Shown here: one piece after another, positions 33,031-62,825 of the stretch
How the letters are laid out: the number at the start of each line of letters is the position of its first letter
Position numbering within the stretch: position 1 is the first letter of the stretch
Assembly (NCBI GenBank): GCA_021780535.1
Contig: JAJXYN010000012.1
Coordinates: forward strand, 5,688-69,687
Length of the DNA: 64,000 nt
Direction: 5' to 3'
Source: a bacterium
GTDB lineage: Bacteria > Patescibacteriota > Patescibacteriia > JAGPKW01
The notes under the pieces: generated by a model
Told to the model about the DNA's origin: nothing
The model's input: the letters and a program-made list of their open reading frames with translations, nothing else
Database searches by the model: none
Made by a program: the position numbers and the translations under genes

Positions 33031-33232
33031 TTTTGTTTTTATTATCTTAATTAGATGATTGAATAATTAGAGTTATAGATTATTGGAGAAGGTAAAAATT
33101 TATATTTTCTAATTATCTACTCCTCAAATCATTTAATTATCTAGTTAACTTGATATTATCTCTAAAAATGGTTTTAGGCAATATAATTTGTATAAAATAA
33201 AAGTCCGCCTTCGTCAAGACTAAGGCGGATGA

Positions 33233-33306
33233 TGGCAGGAGTAGTAGGAATCGAACCCACACCAAAGGTTTTGGAGACCTTTGTTCTACCATTAAACTAT
33301 ACTCCT
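33233..33306 (-). tRNA. tRNA-Trp (anticodon CCA)
   Basis: Reverse complement reads AGGAGTA-TA-GTTT-AATGGTA-GAAC-A-AAGGT-CTCCAAA-ACCTT...GTGGG-TTCGATT-CCTAC-TACTCCT-G-CCA. A hairpin terminator (TCCGCCTT/AAGGCGGA) follows on the minus strand. Confidence 0.85.
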
Positions 33307-33395
33307 AGGTTGAAAATTAAAAACTTATAGAGAAATTATATATTAAATGTTGTGTTTAGTAAAGAATAGAAGAAGGTATTAACGATAATAGATTG

Positions 33396-33436
33396 TTTGT
33401 CATTTTATTGACAAAATGTCAAAAATATGATAACAT
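33396..33436 (+). promoter_or_regulatory. promoter (TTGACA-17-TGaTAACAT, extended -10) overlapped by TGTCA/TGACA palindromes (candidate operator)
   Basis: TTTGTCA-ttttat-TGACAAA and TGACA-aaa-TGTCA palindromes at 33396-33421. -35 TTGACA at 33408-33413 and -10 TAACAT at 33431-33436 with TG at -15. Confidence 0.4.
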
Positions 33437-33505
33437 ATAAACATGAGAAGATGGGAGTAGAGTAATCGAAACCAAAATCAAAACTTCTCATTTTTAGGAG
33501 GAATT

Positions 33506-33643
33506 ATGGCAGTGAAGAATGTTGGCGGAAAATTGTGGCTCGTCAGCTTCCCGAATGGCTCCACGATAAACGTGGAGGCCGAAACGGCAAGCCAGGCCAT
33601 TCGTGCGGCCTGCCGAGAAAGGGCCGAAGAGAACCAGCGCTGA
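33506..33643 (+). other. G+C-rich micro-gene (45 codons, MAVKNVGGKLWLVSFPNGSTINVEAETASQAIRAACRERAEENQR) and/or structured ncRNA
   Basis: AGGAGG lies 4 nt upstream of the ATG. Third codon positions are almost all G/C in an otherwise AT-rich genome. Four perfect hairpins lie at 33559-33577, 33578-33588, 33593-33612 and 33629-33651, followed by a terminator. Confidence 0.35.
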
Positions 33644-33654
33644 TGGTTCTCAAT

Positions 33655-33705
33655 TCCAGCCGCTCTAACCTTGAATGGGAGGGGAGAGCGACTGGAATTT
33701 TTTTA
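33655..33705 (+). terminator. terminator closing the G+C-rich island
   Basis: TTCCAGCCGCTCT...AGAGCGACTGGAA hairpin followed by TTTTTTTATTT. Confidence 0.6.
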
Positions 33706-33802
33706 TTTCTTTAACTTTAAAGGTTTTTTGATATTTTTAACACATTAATAACATGTTATGTGTTTTTTTATTTTAAATAGTTGTGTAGAATGGGATTTAA
33801 CA

Positions 33803-33895
33803 AAAGTTGAAATATAAAAATATTAAAATATGCAAAAGTTTTTAAATGTTTCTATATTTTACTTTTAAATGTTTCTATATTTTACTTTTTAATAT
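33803..33895 (+). repeat. intergenic element family, copy 2: GTTGAAATATAAAAATATTAAAA..., then a 24-nt unit TAAATGTTTCTATATTTTACTTTT x2
   Basis: 22/23 identical to 8482-8504; TTTCTATATTTT block repeated. Lies directly upstream of dnaB. Confidence 0.5.
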
Positions 33896-33900
33896 TTTTT

Positions 33901-35277
33901 ATGGCTGATAAATCTTTTCTTCCACCACAGAATTTGGATGCTGAAAAAAGTTTGCTTGGGGCTTTGCTTGTTGATAAAGATGCTATTGTTGAAGTTGCTG
34001 ATGTGCTTGATGCTAATGATTTTTATTCATCTTCTCATGGTCTTATTTATGATGCTATTAACACTCTTTATGAAAAGAGACAGCCTACTGATATTGTTAA
34101 TGTTATTAATATTTTAGACGAGAGAAAACAGCTTGATATGGTTGGTGGTAGATCTGCTATTATTGATTTGGCCGAAAAAAATGTAACTTCTGCTCATTCT
34201 GTTTCTTATGCAAAAATTATTTCAAAAAAAGCTACACTAAGAAGGCTTATTACGAAATCTGCCGAGATTAATGAACTTGCATATCATGAAGATATGGAGA
34301 TTGAAGAAATATTGGATACTGCTGAAAGGGAAATTTTTGGTGTTGCAAAAGATTTGAAAACGGATTCTTTTACTCCGCTTAGAAATGTTTTAAATGAATC
34401 TTTTGAGAGAATTGACTCTTTAAGTCAAAATAAAGGGCAGCTAAGAGGATTGACGAGCGGTTTTAATGATTTAGACCATACTCTTTCTGGTTTTCAAAAA
34501 TCTGATCTTATTATTCTTGCTGCTCGTCCTTCTGTTGGTAAGACTTCTTTTGCTATGGATATTGTTCGTAATGCTGCTATACAAGGTAAGGCTAAAGTTG
34601 CTCTTTTTTCTCTTGAAATGAGTAAAGAGCAATTGACTGATAAACTTATCTCTGCTGAATCTGGTGTTGATCTTTGGAAACTTAGAACTGGTAATCTTTC
34701 TGATCAATCTCATGATAATGATTTTGAAAAAATAGGTCATGCTATTAATTCTTTATCGGATGCTAATATTTATATTGATGATTCTGGTACTTTGACTGTT
34801 ATGCAAATTAGAACTAAATGTAGAAGACTTAAATCTGAACAGGGATTAGATATGATTGTTATTGATTATTTGCAACTTATTGCTGATGGTGGTTCTGATA
34901 ATAGAAATAATGAAATTTCTTTAATATCTAGATCTTTGAAACAACTTGCAAAAGAACTTGATATTCCTGTCATTGCCTTGTCTCAGTTATCGCGTGCTGT
35001 TGAGATGTCAAAACCAGCTATTCCAAAACTTTCTCATTTGAGAGAGTCTGGATCTATTGAGCAAGATGCTGATATTGTTATGTTTATTTATAGAAAAGCT
35101 GCTGATAAAAATTATAGACCGGAAGAAATTATGCCTGATGAAAAAAATGTTGCAGAAATTCATATTGCTAAACATAGAAATGGTGCCTGTGGAGTTATTG
35201 GATTATATTTTAATGGTCAAACTACTTCATTTAAGAATTTGGCTACTAATTTTAATGCATCAACTGTGGAAATCTAA
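33901..35277 (+). CDS. dnaB: replicative DNA helicase DnaB
   Basis: The N-terminal LPPQNLDAEKSLLGALL, Walker A GARPSVGKTSFA, and LIVIDYLQL/RSLKQLAKEL motifs. Confidence 0.95.
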   Translation: MADKSFLPPQNLDAEKSLLGALLVDKDAIVEVADVLDANDFYSSSHGLIYDAINTLYEKRQPTDIVNVINILDERKQLDMVGGRSAIIDLAEKNVTSAHSVSYAKIISKKATLRRLITKSAEINELAYHEDMEIEEILDTAEREIFGVAKDLKTDSFTPLRNVLNESFERIDSLSQNKGQLRGLTSGFNDLDHTLSGFQKSDLIILAARPSVGKTSFAMDIVRNAAIQGKAKVALFSLEMSKEQLTDKLISAESGVDLWKLRTGNLSDQSHDNDFEKIGHAINSLSDANIYIDDSGTLTVMQIRTKCRRLKSEQGLDMIVIDYLQLIADGGSDNRNNEISLISRSLKQLAKELDIPVIALSQLSRAVEMSKPAIPKLSHLRESGSIEQDADIVMFIYRKAADKNYRPEEIMPDEKNVAEIHIAKHRNGACGVIGLYFNGQTTSFKNLATNFNASTVEI

Positions 35278-62695: not shown

Positions 62696-62825
62696 TCCTT
62701 CGCATAGCTACGGCTGGCGATGCCAATTTGAGAGATAGACCGTGATGGGTCTATTTTTTGTTGCAAATAGAATGTTTTTGGAAATAAAAAATAACTCTAG
62801 TTTTTTTGTTAGAGTTATTTTTTAT

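What the first reader, a model, noticed from the sequence alone, without database searches (positions are those of the whole stretch)
33396..33705. G+C-rich island upstream of dnaB: promoter + palindromic operator + SD + 45-codon ORF densely packed with perfect hairpins
Between tRNA-Trp and dnaB sits a roughly 200-nt stretch of about 55-60 % G+C in a roughly 27 % G+C genome.

Signals seen:
- A TTGACA-17-TGaTAACAT promoter overlapped by TTTGTCA-N6-TGACAAA / TGACA-N3-TGTCA palindromes.
- A leader hairpin ATGAGAAG...CTTCTCAT+TTTTT.
- An AGGAGG SD, then an ATG-initiated 45-codon ORF (MAVKNVGGKLWLVSFPNGSTINVEAETASQAIRAACRERAEENQR) whose third positions are almost all G/C.
- Within 100 nt, four perfect stem-loops: CTCCACG/CGTGGAG, GCCG-AAA-CGGC (GNRA-type), CAGGCC/GGCCTG and GAGAACCA/TGGTTCTC (the last spanning the stop codon).
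- A 13-bp terminator hairpin to close it.

Such a GC island with consecutive perfect helices is the classic signature of a structured RNA in an AT-rich genome. The intact SD/ORF with foreign codon usage alternatively suggests a recently acquired micro-protein gene, or a dual-function RNA. I could not match it to tRNA, tmRNA, RNase P, SRP, 5S or a known riboswitch.
Basis: partly seen in the sequence, partly recalled or inferred. Interest (0 to 1): 0.75.

Follow-up and report, generated by a model that had tools for sequence, protein, structure and literature searches.

The report
Swappable micro-gene cassette upstream of dnaB
The G+C-rich island is a self-contained tiny gene (own promoter with a probable repressor site, ribosome-binding site, a 45-codon protein with no known relative, own terminator), and it sits in a slot before dnaB where closely related ultra-small bacteria each carry a different tiny gene.

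Summary
Window 33466-33732 is the most G+C-rich stretch of the window (0.62 against 0.27 overall).

No Rfam family matches it. The genome is a Patescibacteria MAG. Six relatives (DnaB 91-95% identical) keep the same regulatory shell upstream of dnaB:
- a TTGAC-N5-GTCAA palindrome on the -35, with an extended -10;
- a 5' stem-loop, a strong SD, and a terminator whose stem covaries.

The G+C-rich core between the 5' stem-loop and the terminator (SD and ORF) is different in each relative. There are at least four unrelated small ORFs of 45-76 aa. One of these families shows synonymous changes and an in-frame indel, which marks it as protein-coding.

The window's peptide has no homologue among about 15 billion proteins. 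AlphaFold nevertheless folds it from the single sequence with pLDDT 95 (three strands and a helix); the overlapping frame scores 59.

Cassette ORFs are also more structured as RNA than host genes (p = 3e-5).

Best reading: an autonomous accessory micro-protein gene, built like a phage moron, in a hypervariable chromosomal slot. Its function is unknown. A dual-function RNA is not excluded.

The parts
33408..33436 (+). Sigma-70-type promoter: -35 TTGACA (33408-13), 17-nt spacer, extended -10 TGATAACAT (33428-36). Predicted transcription start about 33442-33444.
   Evidence: 10/12 match, TG present. The same geometry is kept in five relatives' cassettes.
33408..33422 (.). Palindrome TTGAC-N5-GTCAA overlapping the -35: a putative operator for a repressor encoded elsewhere.
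   Evidence: 0.01 expected by chance. The right arm GTCAA is not a sigma-factor contact, yet it is kept in 6 of 7 cassettes while the 5-nt spacer varies. Protein binding is inferred, not shown.
33442..33492 (+). 5'-terminal stem-loop of the transcript: CATGAGAAG ... CTTCTCAT, followed by U5. It contains a possible leaderless mini-ORF, ATG AGA AGA TGG GAG TAG (33443-33460).
   Evidence: I15. Conserved in L084, L087, L088a and L089b, mostly by sequence, with one G-U change. A stabilising role is inferred.
33496..33501 (+). Shine-Dalgarno AGGAGG, 4 nt before the ATG.
   Evidence: All eight cassettes carry a purine/G-rich Shine-Dalgarno-like run a few nt before their ATG; five have GGGAGG or AGGAGG at 4-5 nt. 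Only 9 of 49 host genes carry an SD-like motif.
33506..33643 (+). 45-codon ORF MAVKNVGGKLWLVSFPNGSTINVEAETASQAIRAACRERAEENQR: an orphan micro-protein predicted to fold as three strands and a helix.
   Evidence: AlphaFold single sequence gives pLDDT 95.2 and pTM 0.72, against 58.7 and 0.17 for the overlapping 59-aa frame. No homologue found.
33490..33655 (+). The lineage-specific (swapped) G+C-rich core. Homology with relatives stops after the 5' stem-loop and resumes at the terminator.
   Evidence: The sister lineage L084 carries a different 58-aa ORF here.
33559..33577 (+). Perfect hairpin CTCCACG-ATAAA-CGTGGAG inside the ORF.
33578..33588 (+). Small hairpin GCCG-AAA-CGGC (4 bp, triloop; not GNRA).
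33593..33612 (+). Perfect hairpin CAGGCC-ATTCGTGC-GGCCTG inside the ORF.
33629..33651 (+). Perfect hairpin GAGAACCA-GCGCTGA-TGGTTCTC with the stop codon TGA in its loop.
   Evidence: Cassette L089b likewise has a perfect 8-bp hairpin with its stop codon in the loop.
33652..33704 (+). Intrinsic terminator: a long hairpin (AATTCCAGCCGCTCT ... AGAGCGACTGGAATT, one C-A mismatch, inner CCTT/GAGG pairs) followed by T7.
   Evidence: I6. 7 of 12 consensus pairs show compensatory changes across 8 sequences, including the empty slot of L003.
33734..33791 (+). Conserved dnaB-proximal region: TTAACA..TAATAACAT motif and TGTGTAGAAT (an extended -10-like element, 33782-33791). Probably dnaB's own promoter.
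   Evidence: Conserved in L084, L087, L089 and L090. Promoter function is inferred.
33233..33306 (-). tRNA-Trp(CCA), the 5' neighbour of the cassette.
33901..35277 (+). dnaB (replicative helicase), the invariable 3' neighbour of the cassette.

Best explanation
The island is an autonomous accessory micro-gene cassette.

**What it is made of**
- A strong sigma-70 promoter. Its -35 is overlapped by a conserved TTGAC-N5-GTCAA palindrome, probably the operator of a repressor encoded elsewhere.
- A transcript of about 260 nt that starts with a stem-loop.
- A strong Shine-Dalgarno site and a 45-codon ORF for a small protein predicted to fold as three strands and a helix.
- A conserved intrinsic terminator just before dnaB's own promoter.

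**How it varies**
- The promoter, 5' stem-loop and terminator form a regulatory shell that is inherited vertically in a genus-level clade of Patescibacteria.
- The core (SD and ORF, window about 33490-33655) is replaced from lineage to lineage by unrelated, G+C-enriched, hairpin-rich small ORFs.
- The window's ORF is therefore one occupant of a hypervariable expression slot. In build it resembles a phage moron, but it sits in the chromosome.

**Shown**
- The anatomy.
- Conservation of the shell and covariation in the terminator.
- Non-homology of the cores.
- Protein-level constraint in one sister family.
- A confident fold prediction for this frame only.

**Inferred**
- Transcription, translation and repression.
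- Cassette exchange by recombination in the conserved flanks, or by horizontal transfer from a G+C-richer pool.
- A role in conflict with phage or host. This rests only on the hypervariability and orphan status.
For: **Shell conserved, core not**
- Relatives with DnaB 91-95% identical (dnaB DNA 85-91%) all carry a G+C-rich island in the same place.
- The flanks align at 74-83% DNA identity. The core does not align at all.

**Operator and promoter**
- Geometry is identical in five cassettes, and the palindrome arms are kept in six of seven.

**Terminator**
- 7 of 12 pairs carry compensatory changes.

**Translation signals**
- Every cassette has a purine/G-rich SD-like run a few nt before an ATG, and five have GGGAGG or AGGAGG at 4-5 nt. 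Only 9 of 49 host genes have any SD-like motif.

**Protein-level constraint in a sister family**
- Family A (L084, L087, L088b) keeps the motifs ILIK.GS and APNAGY.R..AN..NW through synonymous changes.
- A 93%-identical variant of L084 differs by 3 synonymous changes, 3 non-synonymous changes and one in-frame codon indel.

**The 45-aa frame folds**
- AlphaFold single sequence: pLDDT 95.2, pTM 0.72, with strands 2-7, 10-14 and 20-24 and a helix at 28-43.
- The overlapping 59-aa frame gives 58.7 and 0.17.

**Composition is foreign in every cassette**
- ORF G+C is 0.41-0.58 and GC3 is 0.34-0.69. Host GC3 is 0.14.

**The ORF was swapped within the shell**
- The sister lineage L084 (95% bootstrap on dnaB) holds a different ORF in the same shell.
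Against: - There is no expression data. No variant of this particular ORF exists in any collection; the only other copies are 100% identical. Selection on this ORF therefore cannot be measured.
- Gene callers never called the ORF, and it has no homologue among about 15 billion proteins.
- ORFs are cheap in G+C-rich DNA. The island also has open frames of 59, 40 and 36 codons.
- Three perfect hairpins in 150 nt (P about 0.002) and low folding z-scores in all eight cassettes (mean -3.3 against -0.6 for host coding sequence, p = 3e-5) point to a constraint on the RNA or DNA structure that a plain protein gene does not need.
- A high AlphaFold confidence on a 45-residue peptide does not prove that the peptide is made.
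- No repressor has been identified.
Confidence: 0.62

Rival explanations
1. Structured non-coding or dual-function RNA. The G+C-rich, hairpin-dense transcript is itself the active molecule: an sRNA, a decoy, or a protein-binding RNA. The ORF is incidental, or is translated as a second function.
For: - The 266-nt unit folds with z = -3.8.
- Three perfect hairpins, P about 0.002.
- All eight cassette ORFs fold better than their shuffles. Their mean z is -3.3 against -0.6 for host coding windows (Mann-Whitney p = 3e-5).
- Two cassettes place the stop codon in a hairpin loop.
Against: - No Rfam match at E <= 10.
- The cores share neither sequence nor length between relatives.
- Within the ORF the folding energy is not better than that of synonymous recodings (z about -1.3).
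- The conserved SD spacing, the protein-level conservation in family A and the AlphaFold result all point to translation.
- The z-scores may be inflated by uneven composition within the segments.
Confidence: 0.17
2. Inert remnant of horizontal transfer. A scrap of G+C-rich foreign DNA landed behind a pre-existing promoter and in front of a pre-existing terminator, and it has no function.
For: - The sequence is an orphan in every database searched.
- Its composition has not drifted towards that of the host.
- A close relative, L003, lives without any cassette.
Against: - The insert supplies an SD at the cassette-typical spacing, an ATG, and an open frame that ends just before the terminator. 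Every other occupant of the slot does the same.
- The frame gives a compact, confident fold.
- Identical copies occur in separate assemblies.
Confidence: 0.1
3. Cis-regulatory leader of dnaB. Translation of the small ORF and read-through of the terminator would tune dnaB expression, as in attenuation.
For: - The cassette is always on the same strand as dnaB and immediately upstream of it. This holds even where the 5' neighbour has changed or tRNA-Trp is inverted.
- A terminator lies between the ORF and dnaB.
Against: - A separately conserved element, TGTGTAGAAT, resembling an extended -10, lies between the terminator and dnaB.
- L003 keeps the terminator and dnaB without any ORF.
- ORF identity is not conserved, so no specific codon or peptide could be sensed.
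- Two loci carry two complete cassettes in tandem.
Confidence: 0.06

Closest known systems
Phage morons (autonomous promoter-ORF-terminator units, first defined in HK97 and HK022)
   Same: It is extra DNA between genes that are adjacent in a relative. It has its own promoter and terminator, and its G+C content differs from its surroundings (definition taken from PMC3594210). It is a small ORF of unknown function that varies between close relatives.
   Different: - It sits between housekeeping genes (tRNA-Trp/recR/ybaB and dnaB/dnaX) of a Patescibacteria chromosome, not in a phage or prophage.
- The promoter, operator and terminator shell is conserved, and only the ORF is exchanged.
- Two loci carry tandem copies of the whole unit.
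Anti-CRISPR and other anti-defence loci with aca-type repressor control
   Same: Small, orphan ORFs that vary greatly between strains, driven by a strong promoter overlapped by an inverted repeat. This comparison rests on my own knowledge and is not a test.
   Different: No aca-like HTH gene follows the ORF. There is no mobile-element context. PADLOC and PHROG give no hit.
Dual-function sRNAs (SgrS/SgrT, RNAIII/hld, SR1/SR1P)
   Same: A transcript of about 260 nt with a 5' hairpin, dense stem-loops, a small ORF and an intrinsic terminator.
   Different: There is no conserved RNA sequence or structure across relatives. No target or seed region can be named. No Rfam family matches.
Integron gene cassettes
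   Same: Variable small ORFs, each followed by an imperfect palindrome, sometimes in tandem.
   Different: - Each unit carries its own promoter.
- The palindrome is followed by a T-tract, like a terminator.
- No GTTRRRY core site is visible in the terminator sequences as read.
- No integrase is adjacent.
Small three-strand-plus-helix folds: dsRBD core, HicB N-terminal domain (UPF0150), UPF0339/YegP, Elf1
   Different: There is no sequence similarity: Pfam, NCBIfam and PDB phmmer are all empty. Foldseek finds nothing below E = 0.3. The peptide lacks the first helix of a dsRBD. No HicA partner is present.

Membership tests
Any Rfam family (tmRNA, SRP, 6S, RNase P, riboswitches, ribozymes, known sRNAs) | A covariance-model match at or near the family's gathering score. 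| tested here: not met
   cmscan of 33100-34000 at E <= 10 returned only tRNA-Trp and two chance hits outside the island. The whole window at gathering threshold returned only seven tRNAs.
Phage moron | Extra DNA relative to a related genome in which the flanking genes are adjacent. | tested here: met
   L003 has tRNA-Trp, 227 nt, then dnaB, with only the terminator present. The window has 594 nt in that interval. The direction of change (gain or loss) is not settled.
Phage moron | Own promoter and own terminator. | tested here: met
   A consensus promoter that is conserved in relatives, and a terminator hairpin with covariation. Activity was not measured.
Phage moron | Base composition that differs from the surrounding genome. 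| tested here: met
   ORF G+C is 0.58 against 0.27 for the window. GC3 is 0.69 against 0.14 for host genes.
Phage moron | Resides in a phage or prophage genome. | tested here: not met
   The neighbours are recR, ybaB, tRNA-Trp, dnaB, dnaX and trmD in every relative. Searches of the phage collection and viral contigs found no true cassette.
Integron gene cassette | A promoterless ORF followed by an attC site with R''/R' core sites, next to an intI integrase. | tested here: not met
   Each cassette has its own promoter. The palindrome ends in a T-tract and shows no GTTRRRY core when the sequence is read directly. No integrase is among the called neighbours.
tRNA-targeted integrative element | A direct repeat of the tRNA 3' end at the far border of the insert. 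| tested here: not met
   tRNA-Trp and the intergenic region share no word of 8 nt or more other than AAACCTT(T), in the window or in L087.
Type I toxin-antitoxin | A small hydrophobic membrane peptide with an overlapping antisense RNA. | tested here: not met
   The peptide is soluble-looking with net charge about 0 (6 basic, 6 acidic residues) and has no hydrophobic helix. No antisense promoter sits in a suitable place.
HicB-N / UPF0150, dsRBD, UPF0339 (YegP) | A sequence-profile match to the family. | tested here: not met
Dual-function sRNA | A base-pairing regulatory activity in addition to a translated ORF. | not testable with these tools
   This needs transcript, target and translation data. 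Only the structural bias is shown here.

The most novel reading that the evidence does not exclude
A chromosomal expression socket. A vertically inherited shell, made of a repressor-controlled promoter, a 5' hairpin and a terminator, stays tied to the replicative helicase gene. It repeatedly captures and exchanges G+C-rich, hairpin-rich orphan micro-genes in a clade of ultra-small symbiotic bacteria. The micro-proteins, or their structured mRNAs, would be fast-turnover weapons or shields in conflict with phages or hosts, or modulators of DnaB. The common G+C enrichment would reflect selection for very stable mRNAs in an AT-rich cell rather than a foreign origin.
Probability: 0.25. Interest if true: 0.75.

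Novelty: new variant of a known kind. Interest (0 to 1): 0.5.

Why it matters
- Patescibacteria have tiny, streamlined genomes, so a slot that keeps turning over orphan micro-genes next to an essential replication gene is unexpected.
- The locus offers a compact natural system for studying how small genes are gained, swapped and expressed.
- The micro-proteins are invisible to standard annotation. The window's ORF was never called.
- The conserved palindrome gives a handle for finding the regulator.
- The shared G+C and structure bias across unrelated ORFs raises a testable question. Is mRNA architecture, rather than donor ancestry, what sets composition in such cassettes?

Tried and rejected
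**Known RNA families**
- Rfam at a permissive threshold found nothing.
- I checked by eye for hammerhead-like (CUGAUGG, GGCCGAAAC) and SRP-like motifs. The required helices do not form, and Rfam's models do not match.

**Homologues of the 45-aa peptide: none**
- Searched without result: Pfam, PHROG (one weak hit, E = 0.047), NCBIfam, PADLOC and PDB.
- The word-indexed search of 5.8 billion protein clusters also found nothing.
- Full HMMER against 1.84 billion representatives returned three hits (E between 6e-5 and 7e-4). All are giant or repeat proteins whose score is summed over many repeats. I judge them spurious.
- Also empty: the exact look-up, tblastn against phages and plasmids, and codon-degenerate and peptide-pattern scans of viral contigs.

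**DNA similarity**
- blastn of the island against phages and plasmids returned only chance 35-nt hits.

**Replication origin**
- GC skew does not switch here, and most genes on both sides are on the plus strand.

**Integration at tRNA-Trp**
- No att-like repeat was found.

**A conserved G+C island upstream of dnaB across Patescibacteria**
- It is absent in relatives with DnaB at 47-58% identity and in L091-L094, whose DnaB is 72-80% identical.

**Metagenome scan**
- The scan with the promoter-plus-ATGAGA pattern retrieved only one true cassette, the L083 contig. The other hits are unrelated leaderless genes with the same promoter geometry.

**Fold searches**
- Foldseek against PDB and BFVD found nothing significant.
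- The AFDB library was not available.

Full report
**1. The observation**

The window averages 26.7% G+C. A 120-nt sliding window peaks at 61.7% inside 33466-33732, the highest value in the 64 kb. The island lies between tRNA-Trp(CCA) (33233-33306, minus strand) and dnaB (33901-35277, plus strand).

- TTGACA-17-TGATAACAT promoter (33408-33436; 10/12 with an extended -10).
- TTGACAAAATGTCAA palindrome on the -35 (33408-33422; 0.01 expected by chance).
- 5' hairpin CATGAGAAG...CTTCTCAT followed by T5.
- AGGAGG, 4 nt, ATG, and a 45-codon ORF at 33506-33643.
- Three perfect hairpins of 6-8 bp in or at the end of the ORF, plus a 4-bp triloop hairpin.
- A long terminator hairpin followed by T7 (33652-33704).

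Three perfect hairpins in 150 nt is unusual (P = 0.002-0.003 against dinucleotide shuffles). The 266-nt unit folds with z = -3.8.

Two details need correcting. Third codon positions are 69% G/C, not nearly all, although host GC3 is only 14%. GCCG-AAA-CGGC is not a GNRA loop.

Within the ORF, the folding energy is not better than that of synonymous recodings (z about -1.3).

**2. Not a known RNA, and the peptide has no known relative**

Rfam 15 gives nothing on the island even at E <= 10. The peptide has no hit in Pfam, NCBIfam, PADLOC or PDB, and only a weak PHROG hit (E = 0.047).

It has no word-sharing relative among 5.8 billion clusters and is not itself in the 15-billion-protein collection. 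Gene callers skipped it.

A full HMMER pass over 1.84 billion representatives gave three hits with E between 6e-5 and 7e-4. All are large or repeat proteins whose score sums many 20-residue repeats. I treat them as spurious.

DNA and tblastn searches of phage and plasmid collections and of viral contigs are empty.

**3. Source and relatives**

The window is from a Patescibacteria MAG (GCA_027355865.1). A 100%-identical copy is in an ENA assembly.

The nearest GTDB species representative is L003 (DnaB 89% identical). It has the same tRNA-Trp(-) to dnaB arrangement, but only 227 nt between the genes instead of 594. It has no G+C peak, though it retains a hairpin plus T-tract that is homologous to the window's terminator.

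Searching DnaB in the large protein collection uncovered closer lineages at 91-95% identity. I fetched their contigs. Every one has a G+C-rich island in the same place.

**4. The key result: conserved shell, swapped core**

BLAST and alignment show that the promoter and 5' hairpin (window about 33406-33489) are conserved with these relatives at 74-83% DNA identity. So are the terminator and the dnaB-proximal region (from about 33656). dnaB itself is 85-91% identical. The core (SD and ORF, about 33490-33655) does not align at all.

The conserved features are:
- The palindrome arms TTGAC/GTCAA are kept in six of seven cassettes while the 5-nt spacer varies. The -35/-10 geometry is identical in five. 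The right arm is not a sigma-factor contact, so its conservation points to a bound protein, probably a repressor encoded elsewhere.
- The terminator stem has compensatory changes at 7 of 12 pairs.

Between these flanks each lineage has its own SD-led small ORF:
- L084: 58 aa.
- L087: 53 aa.
- L088: 56 aa and 71 aa, as two complete cassettes.
- L089: 74 aa and 57 aa, as two complete cassettes.
- L090: 76 aa.
- The window: 45 aa.

All-against-all comparison gives two families and three singletons. Family A contains L084, L087 and L088b. Family B contains L089a and L090. The singletons include the window's ORF.

On a dnaB tree the window is sister to L084 (95% bootstrap), which carries a family A ORF. 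The core has therefore been exchanged between sister lineages. L090 is basal and L003 is nested, so the empty slot is more likely a loss, but support for this is weak.

More distant relatives (DnaB 72-80% identical) lack the shell. So do those at 47-58%.

**5. Protein or RNA?**

*For protein*
- Every cassette has a purine/G-rich SD-like run a few nt before an ATG. Five have GGGAGG or AGGAGG at 4-5 nt. The genome otherwise uses SD-like motifs in only 9 of 49 genes.
- Family A keeps the motifs ILIK.GS and APNAGY.R..AN..NW through many third-position changes.
- A 93%-identical variant of L084 (L105) differs by three synonymous changes, three non-synonymous changes and one in-frame codon indel.
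- Family A exists only in this clade: four proteins among 5.8 billion clusters.
- For the window's own ORF, AlphaFold2 without an alignment gives mean pLDDT 95.2 and pTM 0.72. The predicted fold has three strands and a helix.
- The overlapping 59-codon frame of the same DNA gives 58.7 and 0.17.

*For an RNA-level constraint*
- All eight cassette ORFs fold better than their shuffles (z from -1.3 to -5.5, mean -3.3).
- Forty host coding windows average -0.6 (Mann-Whitney p = 3e-5).
- Two cassettes put the stop codon in the loop of a perfect 8-bp hairpin.
- Uneven composition within the segments may inflate these z-scores.

I conclude that the ORF is most likely translated. The mRNA may in addition be selected for structure, for example for stability in an AT-rich cell. 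A dual-function RNA cannot be excluded.

**6. Mechanism proposed**

*Shown*
- The anatomy.
- Conservation of the shell and covariation in the terminator.
- Replacement of the core.

*Inferred*
- The promoter fires at about 33443 unless a trans-encoded dimeric repressor occupies the palindrome.
- The 5' stem-loop and the G+C-rich hairpins stabilise the message.
- The strong SD drives synthesis of the micro-protein.
- The terminator insulates dnaB, which has its own conserved TGTGTAGAAT element.
- New cores arrive by recombination within the conserved flanks or by horizontal transfer.

Because the ORFs differ while the operator is constant, the variable protein is unlikely to be its own repressor.

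The hypervariability and the orphan status suggest a role in conflict with phages or hosts. The unbroken linkage to dnaB, despite rearrangements on the 5' side, also allows a helicase-directed role. Both ideas are speculative.

The rearrangements on the 5' side are as follows:
- tRNA-Trp is inverted and abuts the cassette promoter in L087 and L105.
- A Bax1-I gene replaces it in L083, L084 and L088.

**7. Comparison with known systems**

By build, the unit meets three of the four defining features of a phage moron as given in PMC3594210. It is extra DNA relative to a relative, it has its own promoter and terminator, and its G+C content is deviant. It fails the fourth, because it is not in a phage.

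It is not an integron cassette. It has its own promoter, no attC core and no integrase. It is not a tRNA-integrated element, since there is no att repeat. It is not a type I toxin, and it does not match any Rfam family.

I file it as a new variant of a known kind: a chromosomal, shell-conserved cassette slot built like a moron.

**8. Verdict**

The finding is real and more interesting than a lone island, because it is one allele of a hypervariable micro-gene slot. Its function remains unknown, and there are no expression data. Interest 0.5.

Noticed in passing
window 1005-1163 (+): A tRNA gene with an insertion of about 86 nt in the anticodon-loop region (the loop region spans 93 nt instead of 7). 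The anticodon stem is CGTC/GACG, the loop begins TTGTAA, and GTA would be Tyr. ARAGORN and the gathering-threshold Rfam run missed it. A permissive cmscan gives tRNA at 47.9 bits (cut-off 29). The insertion is too short for a group I intron.
   Followed up: partly
L087 1952-2024 and L105, compared with window 33233-33306: tRNA-Trp sits in opposite orientations next to the cassette in close relatives. It is on the plus strand with its 3' end abutting the cassette promoter in L087 and L105. It is on the minus strand in the window, L089, L090 and L003. In L083, L084 and L088 a Bax1-I gene is the 5' neighbour instead. The 5' border of the slot is a rearrangement hot spot.
   Followed up: partly
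window 33443-33460; L084, L088, L089 equivalents: The predicted transcript starts with AUG, six nt after the -10. This would give a leaderless mini-ORF: MRRWE* in the window and MRR* in L084. Unrelated metagenome and viral contigs with the same promoter geometry (L096, L098, L101-L104) have real leaderless genes starting ATGAGA at that position.
   Followed up: no
L084 about 2058-2090, L089 about 2003-2035, L088 about 1236-1250: A second leader element, GTGTAT.CTGGACGTC.ACAC (a hairpin containing the palindrome GACGTC), is shared by three cassettes that carry unrelated ORFs. It is absent from the window's cassette.
   Followed up: no
window 33840-33885: A perfect 23-nt tandem repeat, TTTTAAATGTTTCTATATTTTAC x2, lies just upstream of the dnaB start. 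It is absent from L084.
   Followed up: no
L092 2290-2365; L091 1957-1966: More distant relatives have other features upstream of dnaB. L092 has three tandem 22-nt repeats (GGCGTGTCTGTACATTTTT.AAT). L091 has a perfect DnaA box, TTATCCACA.
   Followed up: no
window 62696-62765: A G+C-rich tail of about 45 nt follows tRNA-Gln directly, then the terminator TAGACC-GTGAT-GGGTCTA with T6. It forms part of the second-highest G+C peak of the window.
   Followed up: no
L088 1-22: The Logan contig begins with Illumina adapter sequence, CTACACGACGCTCTTCCGATCT. That contig end is an artefact.
   Followed up: no
L100 about 3900-3995 (-): An unrelated Patescibacteria-like contig (39% G+C) has the same promoter and palindrome geometry, followed by a similar 5' hairpin, AUGAGAAUGGG...CCCAUCCUCAU. 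The promoter-plus-hairpin module may be wider than this clade.
   Followed up: no
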